This document shows, one piece after another, positions 10,303 to 56,131 of a stretch of 64,000 bases of DNA. Under the pieces are notes generated by a model that was not told the origin of the DNA, did not search any database, and saw nothing but the letters and a program-made list of their open reading frames with translations. Source of the stretch: Clostridia bacterium (lineage in GTDB: Bacteria; Bacillota; Clostridia; Christensenellales; UBA1242); assembly GCA_017399265.1 (NCBI GenBank), contig JAFQDL010000009.1, forward strand, positions 42,052-106,051, written 5' to 3'. Position 1 is the stretch's first letter; each line of letters starts with the position of its first letter. A program made the position numbers and the translations under genes.

Positions 10303-10446
10303 GGCCTCGTGGTGTTCTTGAGATATATTTCACCATCAGACCACCCTCTTGGCCTCATGGTGTTCTTGAGATATATTTCACCATTAGACCACCCTCTTGG
10401 CCTCATGGTGTTCTTGAGATATATTTCACCATTAGACCACCCTCTT
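10303..10446 (+). repeat. 3 x 48-bp tandem repeat abutting the tRNA-Arg 5' end. Each unit starts with tRNA nt 1-12 and contains an inverted, diverged copy of tRNA nt 1-15.
   Basis: Units start at 10303, 10351 and 10399. Units 2 and 3 are identical (ggcctcatggtgttcttgagatatatttcaccattagaccaccctctt); unit 1 has 2 substitutions. The tRNA starts at 10447 with the same ggcctcatggtg. Confidence 0.95.
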
Positions 10447-10521
10447 GGCCTCATGGTGAAATGGATATCACACGAGTCTTCGGAACTCGTTTTTCGGGTT
10501 CGAATCCTGATGGGGCCACCA
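10447..10521 (+). tRNA. tRNA-Arg (anticodon UCG), CCA encoded
   Basis: Hand-folded cloverleaf: acceptor GGCCTCA/TGGGGCC, anticodon stem CGAGT/ACTCG with loop CTTCGGA, T arm TCGGG-TTCGAAT-CCTGA. 75 nt. Confidence 0.75.
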
Positions 10522-23468: not shown

Positions 23469-23646
23469 AATACTTCACCCATTTTATCTTTTAGAGTAGT
23501 ATACAACCACCCCTATATACTTTGTCAATAAAAACAATATATGTCTTTAAAATCAATATGGAAAAGTCATAAAAAATCAAAATTTTAAAATGATATTAGT
23601 TTAAAACTACTTTAATTAAAAAAACACCCCAAAGGAGTGTCTGATT

Positions 23647-23950
23647 AAGTGCTCTCGAAAGCATTCGGCCGTAGGTGTCGGGCAAGGTTCCCGACTACAC
23701 CTGGACTCTGTCCATGGGTTCGCGACGATGGTAATCGTCTATGTGTGTAACACATCAAGACCTGAGAGTAAAAAAAGTCGCACAAATTGCGACTTGTTTG
23801 GTGGTCTCTCAGGGATTCGGCCGCAGGTGTCGGGCAGGGGTCCCGACTACACCTGGACTCTGTCCACGGGTTCGTGACGATGGCAATCGTCTATGTGTGC
23901 AACACACTAAGACCTGAGAGTAAAAAAAGTCGCACAAATTACGACTTGTT
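23647..23950 (-). repeat. 2 x 152-bp tandem units downstream of tRNA-Lys. Each has a terminator hairpin, about 100 nt of GC-rich multi-hairpin sequence and a copy of tRNA nt C56-CCA.
   Basis: Proximal unit 23799-23950 begins on the plus strand with tggtggtctctcagggattcg, identical to the tRNA 3' end at 23951-23971. Distal unit 23647-23798 is roughly 90% identical, with a decayed tRNA fragment. Confidence 0.95.
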
Positions 23951-24026
23951 TGGTGGTCTCTCAGGGATTCGAACCCTGGACCCACTGATTAAGAGTCAGT
24001 TGCTCTACCAACTGAGCTAAGAGACC
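23951..24026 (-). tRNA. tRNA-Lys (anticodon CUU), CCA encoded
   Basis: Reverse complement GGTCTCTTAGCTCAGTTGGTAGAGCAACTGACTCTTAATCAGTGGGTCCAGGGTTCGAATCCCTGAGAGACCACCA folds as a canonical 76-nt cloverleaf. Confidence 0.92.
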
Positions 24027-35089: not shown

Positions 35090-36175
35090 ATGCATATCAA
35101 ATCTATTGAATTAAACAACTTTAGAAACTACGATAACGAAGTTGTTTACTTAGACAAAAATCTTAATGTCGTTGTTGGAAATAACGCTCAAGGCAAAACC
35201 AATCTACTTGAGAGTATTTATTTAGCATCTATTGGAAAAAGTCCAAGAACTAGCAAAGAAAAAGAACTTATCAGATGGAACTCTACTTTTGCTAAAGTAA
35301 CAATGGAATATGTAAAACACTCTAATATTCACAAAAAACTTGAGATTTTTCTATCCAACAACCAGAATAAATCTATCAAAATTAATGGCTATTATCTAAA
35401 GAAAATTAGTCAACTTTTGGGTGAAATTTATACAGTATATTTTAGCCCAGATGAGTTAAATATTGTTAAAAATGGACCTAACGAAAGACGTAAATTTTTA
35501 GATATAGCAATATGCCAATTTGATAAAAATTATTTTTACAATCTTAACAAATATTTCGAAGTTTTAGACCAAAGAAATAGACTTCTTAAGTCCTCTAACA
35601 ATTCAAAAACAATTGCGGACACACTTGCAATTTGGGACGAACAGCTAGCAATTTTTGGTGCAAAAATAGTATATACTAGACTTAAATTTGTTAATATTTT
35701 ATCAAGTATCGCTAGTCAAATACATAAGGAATTAACAGAAAATAAAGAAGTTTTAAGATTAGAATACACTGGTGTAAATGACGTAACAGAAGATAATATC
35801 AAGGCAAAATTACTACAAGGACTTATTGATTGCAGAGACAAAGATATATCTTTAGGTTATACTAATGTAGGCCCTCAAAGAGACGATATCAAACTAATTG
35901 TTAATGAGATAGATATACGTTCTTTTGGTTCACAAGGACAGCAGAGAACAGTTGCGCTATCCTTAAAACTAGCAGAACTAGAAGTTATAAAAAGCGAAAC
36001 TCACGAGACTCCTATTCTACTGCTTGATGATGTATTGAGCGAGTTAGATAACGACAGACAACTAAAATTAATTAGCAAAGTAAAAGAGTATCAAACCATT
36101 ATAACGTGTACTGAATTTAAGCACAATATAGATTATAATGAGATAAAAATCAATGATGGCAAATTAATAAAATAA
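35090..36175 (+). CDS. recF: DNA replication/repair protein RecF
   Basis: 361 aa. Walker A GNNAQGKTN, signature SQGQQRT, Walker B LLLDDV. Confidence 0.93.
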   Translation: MHIKSIELNNFRNYDNEVVYLDKNLNVVVGNNAQGKTNLLESIYLASIGKSPRTSKEKELIRWNSTFAKVTMEYVKHSNIHKKLEIFLSNNQNKSIKINGYYLKKISQLLGEIYTVYFSPDELNIVKNGPNERRKFLDIAICQFDKNYFYNLNKYFEVLDQRNRLLKSSNNSKTIADTLAIWDEQLAIFGAKIVYTRLKFVNILSSIASQIHKELTENKEVLRLEYTGVNDVTEDNIKAKLLQGLIDCRDKDISLGYTNVGPQRDDIKLIVNEIDIRSFGSQGQQRTVALSLKLAELEVIKSETHETPILLLDDVLSELDNDRQLKLISKVKEYQTIITCTEFKHNIDYNEIKINDGKLIK

Positions 36176-38033: not shown

Positions 38034-39134
38034 ATGAAAATCGTTTGTGACGGACTTGATTTATCTGATGCAGTCTTAAAAGTAAGTAAAGCTTTAAGTA
38101 ATAAGAGTGTAAATCCTATACTTGAAGGAATTAAAATAAGTACTGATGAAGACTATTTAACATTAACAGCAACAGATTTAGAGTTAACAATAGAAAATAA
38201 AATAAAAGCAGATATCAAAATAGAAGGTGAAGTTGTAGTTCCGGGAAAGTTCTTTGGAGAATATATTAAAAAATTAAACAGAGAGCAAATAGAGCTTACT
38301 ACAGATAACCAAAACAATCTTAGTTTAAGATATGCCGACTCATTCGGTAAGATCCAATGTTATGACAGTTCAGAATATCCAGAAATTAAAAAAGTACAAT
38401 TCGATAATAGTTTCGAGATTAGCCAAAAAGATTTGAAAGAATTAATTAATAAGACAGTATACGCAGTATCAATTGATGAAACAAGACCAATTCTAAAAGG
38501 TGTTAAGTTTGAAGCAGTTGATAATAAACTTACAGCAGTAGCACTTGATGGTTTTAGATTAGCTATGGAAATAAAAGATATCCACAATTTAACTAATAAT
38601 GTGAATATCATTATACCAGCAAAAAGTTTGAGAGAAATTTCAAACATACTTAATGACACAGATGAAACAGTAAAAATAAATATACAAAAGAATAACATGA
38701 TGGTAGAAATTGGAAATTCTACAATAAGTACAAGACTACTTGATGGTGAATTTATAAATTTCAGACAAATTATTCCAAACAGTTTTGCAACAACAGTAAT
38801 AATTAACAAAGCTCAATTAGAAAATTCTATAGACAAAGCAATGCTATTTAGCAGAATTGATAAAAACAACTTAGTAAGATTTGAAGTAAATGAAAAATTA
38901 ATGATTGTATCAAGTCATAGTGAGATAGGTGAGAACAAAGATAATATTTCTATTTCATTAAATGGTAAAGAATTAACAATAGCTTTCAATGCCAGATATT
39001 TCTCAGATGCTTTAAGAGTAATCGATGAAGAATATATTAAGCTAAACTTTAATACTTCAATATCTCCATGCGTAATAACTGGCAATGAAAAAAAAGAATT
39101 TATAAACTTAATTTTACCAGTAAGGATATCATAA
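38034..39134 (+). CDS. dnaN: DNA polymerase III beta sliding clamp
   Basis: 366 aa with the typical three-domain beta-clamp pattern (PILEGIKI..., TRPILKGV..., LPVR C-terminus). Confidence 0.95.
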   Translation: MKIVCDGLDLSDAVLKVSKALSNKSVNPILEGIKISTDEDYLTLTATDLELTIENKIKADIKIEGEVVVPGKFFGEYIKKLNREQIELTTDNQNNLSLRYADSFGKIQCYDSSEYPEIKKVQFDNSFEISQKDLKELINKTVYAVSIDETRPILKGVKFEAVDNKLTAVALDGFRLAMEIKDIHNLTNNVNIIIPAKSLREISNILNDTDETVKINIQKNNMMVEIGNSTISTRLLDGEFINFRQIIPNSFATTVIINKAQLENSIDKAMLFSRIDKNNLVRFEVNEKLMIVSSHSEIGENKDNISISLNGKELTIAFNARYFSDALRVIDEEYIKLNFNTSISPCVITGNEKKEFINLILPVRIS

Positions 39135-47679: not shown

Positions 47680-47805
47680 CGACTTATTTATATAAGTCGT
47701 TTTTTTTATTATTAGTTTTTTAAAATGTAAAAATTGATGTAAAAATTTGTTAAAATAAAAATTATAATATATACTAATAATAATTAGTGAAAAATGGAGG
47801 ATATT

Positions 47806-50481
47806 ATGGCGATAAGACATATTCCTAGAAAAAGTAAAGTAAAAATAGAAGTTTTCCATGGATTTGGAATAGCAGATATATGTTTTGGTATTGTGGGTTT
47901 AGCATTAGCACTAATGTTACTATTTGCTAATATTTTCCCGGCGCCAAATAATATTTATGTCGCTTTGAGTTTCATTGTAATTTGGGTAATGTTGTATGTA
48001 CACGTTAGTGAGGGAGTAAGATTGTATTATGGCCTTGTGCTATTGTTCAAGTTTGTCTCTTATAAAAAGAGGTATGTAAAGAATGCTACAAAAGCAACAG
48101 ATAGTATAGCGAGAATTATACCATTTGATGCAATAAATACAGATAAGTACATACAGTTTGAAGGATATTATGGTAAAGTTACAGAAATTTTACCTATGAA
48201 CTTTGGTTTATTAACGCCAGAAAAACAAGATTCTGTAGTTACATGTTTTGCCCATGCGATATCTAGATTAAATCCAAATCAAAAATTTTCAATTGTAAAA
48301 ACCAGAAAACCAATGGTTCTTGACCAATTGGCAAAATTTGAAGATAATAAATACAATACACTTAACGATATGAGAGATAGAGGCTTGTACAACCCCGATG
48401 AGCTAGATCCTAGAAGTGTTGTATTTGAAGAAAGATTGAATTATATAAATTATTTGAATACAGAAAGCAAAATCGTAAAAGATTATTTTTATATTGTAGT
48501 TTATGATAAGGATAGAGAAGCTTTAGAAACTGGTGTTTCTGGTATGGTAGCGGCTCTAGAAAGTAGTGCAAATCCTATATTTACAAGGGAAGTAAAAGGC
48601 AATGATTTGCTTGTATTTTTAAAAAGTACTTTTACAAGCCAATTTGATGAAAGAGAATTGGATTTGGTAAGTGAAGCTGAAAAAATAAAATGGGCAATGC
48701 CTGATAAAGTTGAATTCCATGTAAGAAACACAAATATTGATGGCGAAGAAATGCGTTCATTTGTCGTAACAGATTATCCTTTGGACATCGGAAATGCGTG
48801 GTTATTTCCATTATTCCTATTAGAAGAAAGTAGAATTGTTGTTCATTGTGAACAAATTGATAAATATCAAGCTAAAAGAATGATAGATAGAAGTTTGATG
48901 GAAGTAGAAGCGAAGTTGTCTAAAGACATGAAAACCTCTAAAAAGATAGCAACTCAGACTCATTACGAGACATTGAGAGAATTGCTTCAAAACTTAGAAA
49001 ATAACAACCAAAACCTTTATAATGTAAACGTACATATTATGGCTGCTGAAGGTGTAAAGAAAGAGGTTAGATCAGTTTTAAGGCAAAGTGGATTTAGATT
49101 TTCTGAAAACTTTGGTAGACAAATAGATGGTTTTGCAAGTGCAAATATAAGTACTTATGATAGACTAAGCAGTAACCAACGTGGAATGCAAACAGATGCA
49201 TTGGCAAGCGGTTTTCCGTTTATCAGTAATATGTTGCAAGACGAAAGAGGCGTCTATTTGGGATATAATGCTTATCCAGTGTTTGTTAACTTCTTTGCAA
49301 GAAATAGCGAACGTGTAAATTCAAATATGATGGTAATTGGTAAGTCTGGTTCTGGTAAATCATATACAACAAAGACATTGCTTACAAACTTTGCAGCAGA
49401 TAATACAAGAATATTTATTCTTGACCCGGAAAACGAGTATGAGATATTGTGTAAAAACCTAAATGGTAAAATTATAGACGTTGGTACAAGTAGCGACGGT
49501 ATATTCAATCCTTTCCACATTTATGCAACATTGGAGGCAGAAGAAGGTGGACAAGACGACTCTTATAACGCACACTTGCAATTCTTAGAGCAGTTCTTTA
49601 AATTAATATTGCCAGGCATAAATGCTGATGCTTTCGAAAAATTAAACTCTATTATTGCTCAGCTTTATGAACGTTTCCATATTACTCCAACAACCGATAT
49701 ATCTGTGCTGTCTCCTGATGACTTTCCAATCTTTGATGATTTGATAGAACTTGTTGACGAGTTAATTGCAAAAGAAAAAGATGAATACCACTTAAGAAAC
49801 TTACAAACGGTAAGAGTATATATAGAAAAATTTGCTACAGGTGGTAGAAATAGTAACTTGTGGAATGGTCCTACAAGTATTAGAACTAATGAAAACTTCG
49901 TCTGCTTTAGTTTCAGAACATTGATCTCTAACCGTAACGATGTTATTGCGAATGCACAGATGCTTCTAGTATTTAAATACTTGGATAACGAAATTATTAA
50001 AAACAGAGACTTTAACTTAAAGTATTTTGCTCACGAAGAAAAGGAAGAAGATCATAGACGTGTAATTGTTGCAGTCGATGAAGCGCACGTATTTATTAAT
50101 AAAAAATATCCTATAGCGCTAGATTTCATGGCGCAAATGGCTAAACGTATTCGTAAATACAATGGTATGCAAATTATTATCACACAAAATATTAAAGACT
50201 TCGTTGGTTCAGAAGAAATTGCTACACAAAGTACAGCAATAATCAACGCGTGTCAATATTCTTTAATACTTTCATTGTCACCAAACGATATTAACGACTT
50301 GATAGCTCTTTATCGTAACGCTGGTGGTATCAACGACTCAGAGAAAGACTCAATAGTATCCGCTCGTCGTGGTCAGGTATTCTTAATTACAGGTCCTATG
50401 AATAGAACAACAATACAAGTACATGCACTAGCAAATACAAAAGTCTTATTTGAACAAGATTTGTCAAGAGAAGAGTATTAA
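47806..50481 (+). CDS. VirB4/TrsE-family (AAA_10-like) ATPase with N-terminal two-helix membrane hairpin (VirB3-like)
   Basis: Start moved to ATG 47806 (RBS GGAGG). Two N-terminal TM helices. Walker A VIGKSGSGKSYTTK, ILDPENEY, Walker B VIVAVDEAHVF, ITQNIKDF. Confidence 0.6.
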   Translation: MAIRHIPRKSKVKIEVFHGFGIADICFGIVGLALALMLLFANIFPAPNNIYVALSFIVIWVMLYVHVSEGVRLYYGLVLLFKFVSYKKRYVKNATKATDSIARIIPFDAINTDKYIQFEGYYGKVTEILPMNFGLLTPEKQDSVVTCFAHAISRLNPNQKFSIVKTRKPMVLDQLAKFEDNKYNTLNDMRDRGLYNPDELDPRSVVFEERLNYINYLNTESKIVKDYFYIVVYDKDREALETGVSGMVAALESSANPIFTREVKGNDLLVFLKSTFTSQFDERELDLVSEAEKIKWAMPDKVEFHVRNTNIDGEEMRSFVVTDYPLDIGNAWLFPLFLLEESRIVVHCEQIDKYQAKRMIDRSLMEVEAKLSKDMKTSKKIATQTHYETLRELLQNLENNNQNLYNVNVHIMAAEGVKKEVRSVLRQSGFRFSENFGRQIDGFASANISTYDRLSSNQRGMQTDALASGFPFISNMLQDERGVYLGYNAYPVFVNFFARNSERVNSNMMVIGKSGSGKSYTTKTLLTNFAADNTRIFILDPENEYEILCKNLNGKIIDVGTSSDGIFNPFHIYATLEAEEGGQDDSYNAHLQFLEQFFKLILPGINADAFEKLNSIIAQLYERFHITPTTDISVLSPDDFPIFDDLIELVDELIAKEKDEYHLRNLQTVRVYIEKFATGGRNSNLWNGPTSIRTNENFVCFSFRTLISNRNDVIANAQMLLVFKYLDNEIIKNRDFNLKYFAHEEKEEDHRRVIVAVDEAHVFINKKYPIALDFMAQMAKRIRKYNGMQIIITQNIKDFVGSEEIATQSTAIINACQYSLILSLSPNDINDLIALYRNAGGINDSEKDSIVSARRGQVFLITGPMNRTTIQVHALANTKVLFEQDLSREEY

Positions 50482-54960: not shown

Positions 54961-55208
54961 TAAGTTTTACCTCCGATATAATTTGTGCTCATATTGTATC
55001 ATATTGAATTTTGAATTTCAATACCTAAATAAAAAATTTATTTCCATATAAGAAAATGCAAAGATTTAATTAAGGCACTTATGTCCATTATTGAAACGTT
55101 TATTAATAACTTATCTAACGATAAGAAAGATATATATAAAGAAATTTCCCCCACAGACTATCTGGTATGATAGAATAAAAAAGCATCTTCAAAAAAGATA
55201 CTTTATTT

Positions 55209-55473
55209 TTGTGTCGACGGCGGGACTTGGCTGGAGCGAAGCGTAAGTGACGGGCAGGGTACCCGGCTACAGAGCATGGAATGCGGGTGAAAGTCCTATT
55301 GAATAAAAAAAAGTATCTAAGATTAAGATACTTAAAAATATTGGTGCCGAAGGCGGGACTTGGCTGGAGCATAGCGTAAGTGCCGGGCAGGGTACCCGGC
55401 TACAGAGCATGGAATGCGGGTGAAAGTCCTATTGAATAAAAAAAGTATCTATGATTAAGATACTTAAAAATAT
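55209..55473 (-). repeat. 2 tandem units (133 + 132 bp) downstream of tRNA-Leu. Each has a terminator hairpin, GC-rich hairpins and a copy of tRNA nt C56-CCA.
   Basis: Proximal unit 55342-55473 starts on the plus strand with tggtgccgaaggcgggacttg, identical to 55474-55494 of the tRNA. Distal unit 55209-55341 has a partly decayed copy (ttgtgtcgacggcgggacttg). Confidence 0.95.
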
Positions 55474-55555
55474 TGGTGCCGAAGGCGGGACTTGAACCCG
55501 CATGGTTTCCCGCACGATTTTGAGTCGTGTGCGTCTGCCATTCCGCCACTTCGGC
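55474..55555 (-). tRNA. tRNA-Leu (anticodon CAA), long variable arm, CCA encoded
   Basis: Reverse complement GCCGAAGTGGCGGAATGGCAGACGCACACGACTCAAAATCGTGCGGGAAACCATGCGGGTTCAAGTCCCGCCTTCGGCACCA. 82-nt class II cloverleaf. Confidence 0.92.
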
Positions 55556-55915
55556 ATGATATATAGAAAATGTAAATCAAATAATATTATGTGCAGCATA
55601 GCCAAATGGAATGGCAGACCTGCACGAGCCGAGCGAAGCGAACGCCATTCTGGAAGAATATTCCGCCACTTCGGCATGATATATAGAAAATGTAAATCAA
55701 ATAATATTATGTGAGGCATAGCCAAATGGAATGGCAGACCTGCACGAGCCGAGCGAAGCGAACGCCATTCTGAAAGAATATTCCGCCACTTCGGCATGAT
55801 ATATAGAAAATGTAAATCAAATAATATTGTGTGCAGCATAGCCAAATGGAATGGCAGACCTGCACGAGCCGAGCGAAGCGAATGCCATTCTGAAAGAATA
55901 TTCCACCACTTCGGC
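55556..55915 (-). repeat. 3 x 120-bp tandem units upstream of tRNA-Leu. Each has an AT-rich leader, tRNA nt 1-16 and a GC-rich hairpin holding an inverted, diverged copy of the tRNA 5' end.
   Basis: ttccgccacttcggc recurs ending at 55555 (true tRNA), 55675, 55795 and 55915 (ttccaccacttcggc). Period is exactly 120 bp and the copies differ at only a few positions (4 to 7 per pair). Confidence 0.95.
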
Positions 55916-56131
55916 ATGATATATGAGTTTACTTTTTTTTTACAATTACAAAAAAACTAATTTTTTTAAACTGCAAAAGCATTGTATCACATTATGTAAA
56001 GAAATTGCAACAATTTTTTCACAAATTTACTAACATTTTATTTGCGGGCAGCAAAATGTTTTGTCTTTAGTGTTAAAAATTTGTATAATATTAATGTATT
56101 ACATTAATAAATACAAGAAAGGAGAAAAAAT

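What the first reader, a model, noticed from the sequence alone, without database searches (positions are those of the whole stretch)
55380..55404. Shared 25-nt hairpin core and identical U55|C56 breakpoint link the Lys and Leu 3'-side units (with a compensatory base-pair change)
Seen directly. Plus-strand cores are GTGTCGGGCAGGGGTCCCGACTACA (Lys unit, 23827-23851; older copy 23675-23699) and GTGCCGGGCAGGGTACCCGGCTACA (Leu unit, 55380-55404; older copy 55247-55271). They are 21/25 identical even though the rest of the units and the two tRNAs are unrelated. Two of the four differences are a coupled T...A to C...G swap that preserves the 5-bp stem (TCGGG/CCCGA versus CCGGG/CCCGG). The other two lie in the 7-nt loop. 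In both loci the copied tRNA segment starts exactly at C56 of the T-loop and runs 21 nt through CCA. Established knowledge: many tyrosine integrases cross over in the T-loop, with an identity block extending to the tRNA 3' end. Inference: the core may be a recombinase or other protein-binding hairpin of one element family that has colonised two different tRNAs, or a functional RNA hairpin.
Basis: partly seen in the sequence, partly recalled or inferred. Interest (0 to 1): 0.75.

Follow-up and report, generated by a model that had tools for sequence, protein, structure and literature searches.

The report
Conserved hairpin of tRNA-tail fold-back units
The 25-nt hairpin is real: it is the most conserved part of a family of small, gene-less, highly structured DNA units that sit in tandem behind two rare-codon tRNA genes in gut Clostridia, each unit carrying a sense and an antisense copy of its own tRNA's tail, a layout that no described element or RNA family fully explains.

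Summary
The core TGTAG-YCGGG-N7-CCCGR-CAC occurs four times in 64 kb, against 0 expected. All four lie in the 3' units of tRNA-Lys(CUU) and tRNA-Leu(CAA).

The core is hairpin "D" of a 130-200-nt gene-less unit. Reading in the tRNA sense, each unit has:
- a terminator;
- an antisense copy of tRNA positions about 68 to 46, interrupted at 57|56 by two covarying hairpins, or mismatched there in the window's Leu unit;
- a small hairpin C;
- hairpin D;
- a linker;
- a sense copy of the tRNA 3' end through CCA.

Homologous units sit behind the same two tRNAs in at least seven other Clostridia lineages. Unit similarity falls as host divergence grows. The units stay alignable where other intergenic DNA does not.

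D is an 8-bp helix with a bulged A. Two of its base pairs show compensatory double changes.

The U55|C56 breakpoint is not universal: it is 58|59 in one species and about 60 in another. No integrase, transposase or reverse transcriptase lies nearby, and there is no Rfam, phage or plasmid match.

The closest known layout is the microCIME, a 130-220-bp att-only remnant. The antisense arms, the covariation and the long-term conservation do not fit an inert remnant.

Best reading (confidence 0.4): a non-autonomous insertion unit that rebuilds the tRNA 3' end, with D as a protein-recognition hairpin in a folded single strand. Main rival (0.3): a structured trailer RNA.

The parts
55474..55555 (-). 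tRNA-Leu(CAA), the host gene of the Leu units
   Evidence: ARAGORN; Rfam tRNA, 59.8 bits
55342..55473 (-). Leu 3' unit 1 (proximal, 132 nt), running from the terminator to the sense copy of the tRNA 3' end
   Evidence: Direct repeats D2/D3, spacing 132-133 nt; sequence
55438..55465 (-). Terminator-like hairpin plus T-run at the start of unit 1 (AAGTATCTT..AGATACTTTTTTT)
   Evidence: Read from the sequence. AT-rich stem, so the consensus scan did not score it
55414..55429 (-). Antisense arm GGACTTTCACCCGCAT, the complement of tRNA positions 62-47. It matches 14/16, with the two mismatches opposite positions 55 and 56
   Evidence: Local alignment, score 22, shuffle p=0.02; flank test p=0.013
55407..55417 (-). 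Hairpin C (GCAT-tcc-ATGC), formed by the end of the antisense arm and a short sense piece (positions 47-50)
   Evidence: Sequence; equivalent hairpins in all homologues
55380..55404 (-). Hairpin D core, the finding itself: TGTAG-CCGGG-TACCCTG-CCCGG-CAC
55363..55379 (-). Linker TTACGCTATGCTCCAGC, conserved with the Lys-type units of other species (L040: TTCCGCTTTGCTCCAGC)
   Evidence: Alignment A1
55342..55362 (-). Sense copy of tRNA-Leu positions 56-76 including CCA (21/21)
55210..55341 (-). Leu 3' unit 2 (distal). Hairpin D lies at 55247-55271 with a broken outer pair (C..T). The tRNA copy is decayed (CAAGTCCCGCCGTCGACACA)
55177..55205 (-). Probable ancestral terminator of tRNA-Leu, displaced outward by the units
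   Evidence: Sequence. The same position follows the single unit in L120
23951..24026 (-). tRNA-Lys(CUU), the host gene of the Lys units
   Evidence: ARAGORN; Rfam, 76 bits
23799..23950 (-). Lys 3' unit 1 (proximal, 152 nt). Contents: terminator 23927-23947; antisense arm part 1 at 23913-23920; hairpin A 23893-23907; hairpin B 23876-23891; antisense arm part 2 at 23862-23874; hairpin C 23852-23865; linker 23820-23826; sense copy of positions 56-76 at 23799-23819
23827..23851 (-). Hairpin D core of Lys unit 1: TGTAG-TCGGG-ACCCCTG-CCCGA-CAC
23647..23798 (-). Lys 3' unit 2 (distal, 82% identical to unit 1). Hairpin D lies at 23675-23699. All stems are kept but the tRNA copy is decayed
23622..23642 (-). 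Ancestral terminator of tRNA-Lys, displaced outward
   Evidence: Terminator scan

Best explanation
The 25-nt core is hairpin D, the only sequence-invariant helix of a family of gene-less fold-back units. D reads GU[A]G-YCGGG, a 7-nt loop, then CCCGR-C-AC. The units are 130-200 nt long. One or several of them sit in tandem between the CCA end of tRNA-Lys(CUU) or tRNA-Leu(CAA) and that gene's original terminator.

I read the unit as a non-autonomous insertion element that rebuilds its target. Its layout is that of a microCIME, a fused attL/attR. The unit supplies a replacement tRNA 3' end plus a terminator and pushes the old 3' end outward, where it decays.

It differs from an ordinary att remnant in that its body is a folded single strand, either DNA or RNA:
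- An arm complementary to tRNA positions about 46-68 pairs with the tRNA 3' sequence and so specifies the target.
- That arm is broken at the T-loop (57|56) by hairpins.
- Hairpin D plus the linker next to the junction is the constant part that a trans-acting protein recognises.

Arrays then grow or shrink by further insertion or by unequal crossing-over between the repeated 3' ends.

What is shown: the anatomy, the tRNA specificity, the covariation, the conservation across species, the copy-number polymorphism and the decay of distal copies.

What is inferred: that the units arose by insertion, that a protein binds D, that the antisense arm acts as a target guide, and which nucleic acid folds.
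For: 1. **Layout.** Each unit starts right after CCA with a terminator and ends with a copy of the tRNA 3' end. Distal copies are the decayed ones.
2. **Two unrelated tRNAs.** The same 42-nt module and the same order of parts occur behind Lys and Leu. The arms match the local tRNA each time, including species whose T-stem or acceptor stem differs.
3. **Antisense arms are significant and specific.** They occur next to Lys(CUU) and Leu(CAA) but not next to Thr, His, Glu, Met, Ala or Ile tRNAs in related genomes.
4. **The arm is interrupted at the same place.** The break is between the complements of positions 57 and 56 in Lys L003, Leu L124 and Leu L131. In the window's Leu unit the two mismatches are opposite positions 55 and 56.
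5. **The arm tracks the real tRNA.** In L003 and L040 the proximal antisense arm matches the real tRNA perfectly (23/23 and 17/17). It matches less well to the unit's own sense copy.
6. **Covariation.** Hairpins A and B have 4 pairs with double changes, and 0 of 500 shuffles reach the observed covariation score. Hairpin D has 2 pairs with double changes and 98% of cells paired.
7. **Presence/absence and copy number.** There are 0 units at Leu in the CAMEKS MAG, 1 in L120, L128 and L131, 2 in the window and L124, and at least 3 identical copies at Lys in L040.
8. **Precedent for size and site.** Gene-less att-only microCIMEs of 130-220 bp occur in tandem at the 3' ends of target genes. tRNA-Lys CTT and tRNA-Leu are classic targets of ICEs and IMEs (integrative conjugative and mobilizable elements) (PMC7563491, PMC5704250).
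Against: - No recombinase, transposase or reverse transcriptase lies near any unit. No larger element carrying these ends was found in the phage, plasmid, viral or metagenome collections or in 185,579 species genomes.
- Lys-type and Leu-type units in one genome share only the module, so there has been no recent copying between loci.
- At the Leu locus, unit similarity falls with host divergence. This looks like vertical inheritance under selection rather than active spread.
- No excised form, empty-site polymorphism within a species, or junction read was seen.
- Non-Watson-Crick pairs overall do not pick out one strand. My tally by eye gave about equal numbers of G-T and A-C.
- Covariation of perfect inverted repeats can also arise from symmetric protein-binding sites in duplex DNA.
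Confidence: 0.4

Rival explanations
1. The units are genes, or transcribed trailers, for a structured non-coding RNA made by read-through from the tRNA promoter. The RNA is closed by a helix between the antisense arm and the tRNA-like 3' end and is trimmed to CCA like a tRNA. Hairpin D binds a protein. The antisense arm may pair with the pre-tRNA or tRNA 3' half to control maturation or abundance of a rare-codon tRNA.
For: - The unit is more conserved than its surroundings: about 81% identity between window and L128, while flanking coding DNA is 67% identical and other intergenic DNA is unalignable.
- Stems A, B and D show compensatory changes.
- The distal Lys unit keeps every stem although it is 18% diverged.
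- Three G-U cells in the D extension fall on the tRNA-sense strand.
- All terminators work in the tRNA sense and bracket each unit.
- Units fold better than shuffles, with z from -2 to -5.8.
- The 5' leaders of tRNA-Leu and tRNA-Arg also carry antisense arms. In L128 this occurs without any duplication.
Against: - The unit lies behind an intrinsic terminator and has no promoter-like site of its own.
- This reading does not explain why the same module sits behind two unrelated tRNAs with arms rebuilt for each. Some insertion or copying mechanism is still needed.
- There is no Rfam match, even at E<=10.
- L128's unit folds no better than shuffles.
- The length of the 3' single-stranded tail varies from 7 to 14 nt, so the unit is not a consistent acceptor-stem mimic.
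- No expression data are available.
Confidence: 0.3
2. The units are ordinary, inert microCIMEs: fused attL/attR scars left by classical tyrosine-integrase ICEs, IMEs or phages that integrate at the tRNA 3' end. They were later duplicated by unequal crossing-over. Hairpin D and the other inverted repeats are former integrase or excisionase binding sites in duplex DNA.
For: - Size, lack of genes, tandem arrangement, direct repeats equal to the tRNA 3' end and distal decay all match published microCIMEs and the accretion model.
- A 21-nt identity running from the T-loop to CCA is what I recall for P4-like integrases. I did not check this against a source.
- This very tRNA-Lys is used by a 9.1-kb integrase element in sister strains.
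Against: - Inert scars should be unalignable at 52-61% identity of the neighbouring protein. These units keep their architecture, and their stems keep pairing through double changes.
- Classical att sites do not contain a 20-nt antisense copy of the target 40-100 nt from the junction.
- No inverted core-type sites flank the junction.
- No ICE or IME adjoins the arrays.
- No integrase-bearing element with these arms was found.
- The integrase element at tRNA-Lys uses the anticodon loop and unrelated arms.
Confidence: 0.15
3. The units are traces of a tRNA-primed or tRNA-copying reverse-transcription process. On the strand antisense to the tRNA, the 18-21-nt copy reads TGG... like a retroviral primer-binding site. 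It would be re-copied from the tRNA each cycle, which would explain why it tracks the tRNA.
For: - The copy always ends at CCA and is 21 nt (from C56) or 18 nt (from A59) long.
- From my own knowledge, not checked here: these lengths resemble primer-binding sites and 3' tRNA fragments, and Neurospora retroplasmids integrate at tRNA genes through hybrid cDNAs.
Against: - No reverse transcriptase is present in the window or in any fetched locus.
- CCA is encoded in these tRNA genes, so it carries no RNA signature.
- Breakpoints vary (56, 59, about 60), and in L003 and L040 the copy deviates from the tRNA.
- The antisense arm is not explained.
- No bacterial precedent is known to me.
Confidence: 0.04
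4. Hairpin D is a REP-like or IS200/IS605-type (PATE) hairpin moved by a Y1 HUH transposase (RAYT or TnpA). The resemblance is the 5' GTAG followed by a GC-rich stem.
For: GTAG immediately 5' of a GC-rich hairpin is, from my own knowledge, the REP signature recognised by RAYT transposases. IS200/IS605 ends are subterminal hairpins about 10-20 nt from the cleavage site, and D lies 7-18 nt from the junction in most units.
Against: - The motif occurs only inside units behind two tRNAs, never dispersed in intergenic DNA.
- GTAG is GTAC in two species, and that base pairs with the 3' flank.
- IS200/IS605 elements make no 18-21-nt target duplication.
- The unit's left end has no matching hairpin.
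- No tnpA or RAYT gene lies in the window.
Confidence: 0.03

Closest known systems
microCIMEs / CIMEs (cis-mobilizable elements: decayed ICEs or IMEs that retain only att sites), described in Streptococcus salivarius and at the tRNA-Lys CTT gene of S. agalactiae (PMC7563491, PMC5704250)
   Same: - Gene-less and 130-220 bp long.
[quoted passage not shown]
- Arranged in tandem, with the most decayed copy farthest from the gene.
- The target genes include tRNA-Lys(CTT) and tRNA-Leu.
   Different: - No ICE or IME sits in tandem with the units, and no cognate integrase element is known.
- The units carry an antisense copy of the tRNA 3' half that tracks the local tRNA.
- The stems covary.
- The units are conserved at the orthologous locus across species whose neighbouring protein is only 52-61% identical. 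A decaying remnant should not be.
Folded single-strand recombination sites: integron attC sites and the CTX-phi attP hairpin used by XerCD (from my own knowledge)
   Same: - An imperfect fold-back in which two inverted arms rebuild a duplex resembling the target site.
- Unpaired or extrahelical bases are kept: the unit's sense copy lacks G59 in both L003 and L040, leaving the antisense arm's matching base unpaired.
- A variable terminal structure lies between the arms.
- Arrays grow at the proximal end.
   Different: - There is no GTTRRRY core or dif-like sequence.
- No IntI gene was seen nearby, and no Xer involvement has been shown.
- The arms equal a tRNA sequence and differ between loci.
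- No single-stranded intermediate has been shown.
Tyrosine-integrase att sites at tRNA 3' ends, T-loop/3'-end class of P4-like and related integrases (from my own knowledge)
   Same: The identity block starts in the T-loop and runs to the tRNA 3' end. The element restores the tRNA and adds a terminator.
   Different: - No integrase gene is present.
- No inverted core-type sites lie around a 7-bp overlap at the junction.
- The start of the identity block varies (56, 59, about 60), and the block is imperfect in two species.
REP elements and RAYT transposases; IS200/IS605 PATEs
   Same: A GTAG tetranucleotide followed by a GC-rich hairpin. The elements are small, gene-less and act as single-strand hairpins.
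   Different: - These units are strictly tRNA-linked, not dispersed.
- They duplicate 18-21 nt of the target.
- G/C of GTAG/GTAC is part of the helix.
Guide-programmed mobile elements: group II intron EBS-IBS pairing, IS110 bridge RNA, IS200/IS605 guide-target pairing (from my own knowledge)
   Same: A constant structured scaffold combined with variable segments complementary to the target on both sides of the insertion point. The family retargets to a different sequence by changing those segments.
   Different: No associated enzyme gene is present, there is no sequence or Rfam similarity, the target is duplicated, and the mechanism is untested.

Membership tests
microCIME (att-only remnant of an ICE/IME) | [quoted passage not shown] | tested here: met
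   Units of 132-174 nt; no ORF that is more than chance. There are 21-nt repeats of tRNA positions 56-76
microCIME (att-only remnant of an ICE/IME) | Derived from, and recombined by, a cognate ICE/IME integrase whose att arms it retains. It is usually found in accretion with such an element | tested here: not met
   No integrase or conjugation gene adjoins any array. No larger element with these arms was found in phages, plasmids, IMG/VR, JGI metagenomes or GTDB species genomes. This is absence of evidence only, because complete genomes of this clade could not be scanned
microCIME (att-only remnant of an ICE/IME) | A decaying, non-functional remnant, so expected to evolve neutrally | tested here: not met
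   Architecture and pairing are kept across species with 52-61% YhhN identity. Double changes occur in stems A, B and D
Tyrosine-integrase attP/attB at a tRNA T-loop/3' end | An identity block from the T-loop to the tRNA 3' end, shared by element and target | tested here: met
   Perfect copy of positions 56-76 in window Lys, window Leu, L120 and L131. The block is shorter or imperfect in L124, L128, L003 and L040
Tyrosine-integrase attP/attB at a tRNA T-loop/3' end | Inverted core-type binding sites flanking a 6-8-bp overlap at the crossover, and an integrase gene next to attP | tested here: not met
   The sequence 5' of the junction (CTNCRGC) has no inverted partner 3' of it. No integrase is nearby
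Integron attC / CTX-phi-type folded single-strand att site | Two inverted arms that fold into a duplex-like site, with conserved core boxes (GTTRRRY or dif-like) and a dedicated or Xer recombinase | tested here: inconclusive
   The fold-back with conserved imperfections is present. No GTTRRRY or dif-like core was seen by eye. The recombinase is not identifiable with these data
REP / RAYT | Many dispersed extragenic copies of GTAG plus a palindrome, with a RAYT gene in the genome | tested here: not met
   Only 4 copies in 64 kb, all in tRNA units. Every copy in 335 kb of related loci is tRNA-linked. No Y1 transposase gene lies in the window
IS200/IS605 PATE | Similar subterminal hairpins at both ends, insertion 3' of a 4-5-nt target, and no target duplication | tested here: not met
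   18-21 nt of the target is duplicated. The left end carries only an unrelated terminator hairpin
Any described RNA family (Rfam 15), tRNA or tmRNA | A covariance-model match at or near the gathering score | tested here: not met
   Only the three tRNAs pass. Nothing relevant appears at E<=10 over either locus. ARAGORN calls no tRNA-like gene in any unit
tRNA-primed retroelement (primer-binding site) | An 18-nt complement of the tRNA 3' end next to a reverse-transcriptase-encoding element | tested here: not met
   Complements of 18-21 nt exist, but no reverse transcriptase is present in the window or the loci

The most novel reading that the evidence does not exclude
The units are a previously undescribed kind of tRNA-linked element. 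A constant folded scaffold (hairpin D, the linker and the junction hairpins) is combined with two arms, one antisense and one sense, that are templated on or selected to pair with the resident tRNA's 3' half. Either of two forms would be new:
- a nucleic-acid-guided, non-autonomous insertion element that targets the T-loop region and rebuilds the tRNA end;
- its domesticated descendant, a new class of trailer RNA that pairs with its own rare-codon tRNA.

The 5'-side units of tRNA-Leu and tRNA-Arg would be the mirror-image version of the same principle.
Probability: 0.3. Interest if true: 0.85.

Novelty: new variant of a known kind. Interest (0 to 1): 0.66.

Why it matters
tRNA 3' ends are the commonest landing sites for integrative elements. 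The small repeats left there are usually dismissed as scars.

Here such a "scar" is a conserved, covarying, multi-hairpin structure. Its arms are rewritten for each tRNA it accompanies. If the arms act as guides, this would be a compact, sequence-programmable way of targeting a gene and repairing it on insertion. If the unit is an RNA, it would be a new regulator tied to rare-codon tRNAs in abundant, uncultured gut Clostridia.

Either way, the family gives a concrete and searchable signature: GU[A]G-YCGGG...CCCGR-C-AC lying 7-50 nt upstream of a tRNA 3'-end copy. It also warns annotators that gene callers turn such arrays into false proteins. A called 162-aa "protein" in one metagenome assembly spans the tRNA-Leu gene and its 5' units.

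Tried and rejected
- **Rfam.** Gathering thresholds over the whole window, and E<=10 over both loci, gave only tRNAs and noise.
- **Pattern scans of public collections.** In the species genomes only two MAGs had true hits, among about 75 high-GC chance matches. IMG/VR and JGI metagenomes gave chance matches only.
- **blastn of units against phage and plasmid records.** Nothing meaningful.
- **Synteny walk from leuS,** the gene next to tRNA-Lys in L003. The neighbourhood is not conserved. It did yield control tRNAs (His, Thr, Ala, Ile) without units.
- **Protein search with a spurious ORF that spans a Lys unit.** Hits were almost all antisense-tRNA ORFs. One distant relative turned up (L105), which lacks the core.
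- **Hammerhead-type ribozyme core between the two antisense arms.** No CUGANGA or GAAA motif by eye.
- **tRNA-like cloverleaf or acceptor-stem mimic.** Arm lengths and the 3' tail are inconsistent between species, and ARAGORN and Rfam are negative.
- **Target-site duplication or terminal inverted repeats of a transposon or casposon.** The ends are not inverted repeats, and the duplication length varies.
- **The D loop as a crossover overlap matching the tRNA.** It matches 6/7 only in the window's tRNA-Lys, not elsewhere.
- **Reverse complement of the A+B insertion compared with D plus linker.** Only a weak 8/10 match.
- **Strand assignment from G-T versus A-C mismatches over all stems.** The counts were about equal. 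Only the D extension favours the tRNA-sense strand.
- **An ICE next to the Leu array.** The region is the oriC core (dnaA, dnaN, recF, gyrBA, mnmEG, rsmG, parAB), not an island.
Full report
**1. Observation**

ARAGORN finds three tRNA genes in the window:
- tRNA-Arg(UCG), 10447-10521, plus strand;
- tRNA-Lys(CUU), 23951-24026, minus strand;
- tRNA-Leu(CAA), 55474-55555, minus strand.

With up to two mismatches it matches only at 23675, 23827, 55247 and 55380. No match appeared in 100 dinucleotide-preserving shuffles.

The cores lie in tandem units directly downstream of the two tRNAs: two 152-nt units at Lys and two 132/133-nt units at Leu. Both proximal units end in a perfect 21-nt copy of canonical positions 56-76, including CCA.

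**2. Anatomy of a unit**

Read in the tRNA sense, every unit has the same order of parts:
- an intrinsic-terminator hairpin with a T-run, which now terminates the tRNA;
- an antisense copy of the tRNA's own 3' half;
- a small hairpin C, made by the end of that arm and a few sense bases;
- hairpin D, which is the core;
- a linker;
- the sense copy of the tRNA 3' end.

- In the window's Leu unit it is GGACTTTCACCCGCAT, the complement of positions 62-47. It matches 14/16, and both mismatches lie opposite positions 55 and 56.
- In the window's Lys unit it is split into CTCTCAGG (positions 69-62) and CGAACCC-G-TGGAC (positions 57-46). Two hairpins, A and B, lie between the parts.

Shuffle tests put most of these matches at p<=0.05.

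The block shared between Lys and Leu units is longer than 25 nt. Hairpin plus linker is about 42 nt, and window Leu and L040 Lys are identical at 37/42 positions. The window's Lys unit has an 11-nt deletion in the linker.

Folding predicts a multi-branch structure, closed by a helix between the antisense arm and the sense copy. Z-scores range from -2 to -5.8. One unit, L128, folds no better than shuffles.

**3. Relatives**

An exact-pattern scan of 185,579 species genomes returned about 75 matches in high-GC sequence with no unit features, which I read as chance hits. It also returned three true loci from two gut Clostridia MAGs:
- L003 and L043 (one MAG) carry at least three units behind tRNA-Lys(CUU);
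- L040 carries at least three identical 174-nt units behind tRNA-Lys(CUU).

That tRNA-Lys has a different T-stem and acceptor stem from the window's, and the units' arms differ accordingly.

I then walked the orthologous YhhN/tRNA-Leu(CAA) locus through homologues of the neighbouring protein.

| Locus | YhhN identity to window | 3' units at tRNA-Leu(CAA) |
|---|---|---|
| L120 | 73% (DNA 95-98% identical, so a close relative) | 1 |
| L128 | 61% | 1 |
| L131 | 52% | 1 |
| L124 | 52% | 2 |
| L127 (the CAMEKS MAG) | 52% | 0 |

L131 and L124 have the full architecture with hairpins A and B. In both, and in Lys L003, the antisense arm is interrupted exactly between the complements of positions 57 and 56.

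The T-stem pair 50:64 is C-G in the window and T-A in L131. In L131 the antisense arm, the short sense piece and the 3' copy all carry the change.

L105 comes from a diderm lineage, judged by its LptC/LptB neighbours. It has a distant relative of the Lys unit without the core.

Control tRNAs in related genomes (Thr, His, Glu, Met, Ala, Ile) have no such flanks.

A relaxed D pattern hits only units behind Lys(CUU) or Leu(CAA) in 335 kb of low-GC sequence.

**4. Selection**

The G of TGTAG pairs with the C of CAC. In L131 and L124 this pair is C-G instead (TGTAC...G). Beyond a bulged A, two further pairs form.

Across 11 distinct copies:
- two pairs show double changes (G-C to C-G, and U-A to C-G);
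- three cells are G-U on the tRNA-sense strand;
- the only broken pair is in the decayed distal Leu copy.

In that alignment, the long loop of the L124 row was replaced by a placeholder. Only stem columns were counted.

Hairpins A and B have four pairs with double changes, and 0 of 500 shuffles reach the observed covariation score.

By my count on alignment A2, the distal Lys unit differs from the proximal one at about 10 body positions. Nearly all are in loops, while its tRNA copy has decayed.

Between the window and L128, the unit is about 81% identical. Flanking coding DNA is 67% identical, and other intergenic DNA does not align. The units are therefore under purifying selection and are not neutral scars.

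**5. What argues for insertion, and what is missing**

The layout is that of an integrated element that rebuilds its target: a new 3' end plus terminator lies proximal, and the old 3' end is displaced and decaying. The published parallel is the microCIME (PMC7563491, PMC5704250). These are gene-less att-only remnants of 130-220 bp. They lie in tandem at the 3' ends of target genes, with the most decayed copy farthest from the gene. tRNA-Lys CTT and tRNA-Leu are frequent targets of such elements.

Copy number varies between close relatives. 3' units number 1 versus 2 between L120 and the window. 5' units number 2 versus 3 in L001 and L120 compared with the window.

No enzyme was found. The window is the chromosomal origin region:
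- the GC-skew minimum is near 36 kb;
- it holds dnaA, dnaN, recF, gyrBA, mnmEG, rsmG, parAB, ileS and trpS;
- the ORFs scanned against Pfam, about 30 including all those beside the three tRNAs, gave no integrase, transposase or reverse transcriptase match.

The only integrase element seen is a 9.1-kb island in sister strains. It crosses over in the anticodon loop of tRNA-Lys, has unrelated arms and brings its own tRNA-Lys. The host 3' half at its far end is still followed by a truncated unit.

Classical att sites also do not explain three features:
- an antisense target copy 40-100 nt from the junction;
- the interruption of that arm at the T-loop;
- a proximal arm that matches the real tRNA perfectly (23/23 in L003, 17/17 in L040), better than it matches the unit's own sense copy.

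**6. Interpretation**

I commit, at confidence 0.4, to a non-autonomous insertion unit. Its constant scaffold, hairpin D plus linker, would be a protein-recognition site in a folded single strand. Its arms would pair with and rebuild the tRNA 3' half. The arrays would be modelled by further insertion or unequal crossing-over.

What is shown: the anatomy, the specificity, the covariation, the conservation and the polymorphism. What is inferred: that the units arose by insertion, that a protein binds D, that the arm acts as a guide and which nucleic acid folds.

The main rival, at 0.3, is a trailer-derived structured RNA that pairs with its own tRNA. It explains the conservation and the sense-strand G-U pairs better. 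It does not explain how one module came to sit behind two unrelated tRNAs with rebuilt arms. The two readings could be successive stages of one history.

The other rivals score lower:
- inert microCIME scars, 0.15;
- a tRNA-primed retro-process, 0.04;
- REP or IS200/IS605-type hairpins, 0.03.

**7.

The verdict is "partly supported".
- The hairpin, the compensatory change and one family at two tRNAs all hold, and are strengthened.
- The identical U55|C56 breakpoint is a feature of some members only.
- A T-loop integrase crossover is not demonstrated.

Noticed in passing
window 55556-55915 (minus strand), three 120-nt units; window 10303-10446 (plus strand), three 48-nt units: Tandem units also occur on the 5' side of tRNA-Leu and tRNA-Arg. 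Each has a sense copy of the tRNA 5' end (positions 1-16 for Leu, 1-12 for Arg), a short hairpin beginning TTCTT, and an antisense copy of roughly the first 30 tRNA positions (12-31 plus a short 7-1-like piece in Leu; 29-1 in Arg). In Arg the last antisense arm can pair with the first 25 nt of the real tRNA (80% complementary, 6-nt loop). L131 has a version that breaks at 26|27. L128 has the antisense arm in the leader without any duplication. The Leu 5' units share the motif CGCTTCGCTC with the distal Leu 3' unit's linker.
   Followed up: partly
L116:10450-19585 (also L106, L108-L112, L118, L119): Sister strains carry a 9.1-kb integrative element inserted in the anticodon loop (CTCTTAAT) of tRNA-Lys(CUU). 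It encodes a 483-aa tyrosine integrase, an FtsK-like protein and a rolling-circle Rep (G2P). It splits the host tRNA and carries its own complete tRNA-Lys(CUU), with a different acceptor stem (GGACCTT/AAGGTCC), 110 nt inside attL.
   Followed up: partly
L116:19618-19697: Behind the displaced host tRNA-Lys 3' half at attR there is a terminator and a unit truncated after half of hairpin B (ACTCTCAGG...GACGATTA). The unit therefore predates the strain split and can be lost by deletion.
   Followed up: yes
window, about 36000 (GC-skew minimum); dnaA 36479-37819, dnaN 38034-39134, recF 35090-36175: The window spans the replication origin. By orientation, tRNA-Leu and tRNA-Arg, the two tRNAs with 5' tandem units, are transcribed head-on to replication. 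tRNA-Lys, which has no 5' units, is co-directional. With only three genes this is an anecdote.
   Followed up: partly
L043:1770-2141: tRNA-Arg(UCG) in the CAMEKS MAG is preceded by a duplicate of about 70 nt of upstream sequence plus tRNA positions 1-41. A 150-nt body follows, containing an exact 11-nt antisense copy (CCCTCAGTTCC) that spans the breakpoint.
   Followed up: partly
L105:3990-4216 (minus strand): In a diderm lineage (LptC/LptB neighbours), tRNA-Lys(CUU) is followed by a distant relative of the Lys unit. It shares ATCGTCACGAA and has a sense copy GAATCCCTGCGCGTCCA. The CGCTTCGCTACAGC linker motif lies after the copy rather than before it. There is no TGTAG-YCGGG core.
   Followed up: partly
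window 55429-55917 (minus strand) and 55115-55372 (minus strand); L002:45-533: Long spurious ORFs run through the repeat arrays. The 162-aa ORF is a called gene in a public metagenome assembly, so the arrays generate false proteins in databases.
   Followed up: yes
window 23834-23840 compared with 23962-23968: The D loop of the window's Lys unit (ACCCCTG) is 6/7 identical to tRNA-Lys positions 59-65 (ATCCCTG). The same loop consensus NACCCTG is kept in Leu units and in species whose T-stem differs. It may be a relic of the family's first host tRNA.
   Followed up: no
L102:7470-7680: Two copies of a repeat of about 120 nt lie between leuS and tRNA-His in a related MAG (AAAGCGCGGAAAAATCTTTTTATACTAGTATACGCAAGCATAAA...). 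It is unrelated to the units.
   Followed up: no
window 47794-50481 (plus strand): An 895-aa protein with a TraG/VirB4-type P-loop and a HerA-like domain sits in the origin-proximal core region. No other conjugation genes are around it.
   Followed up: no
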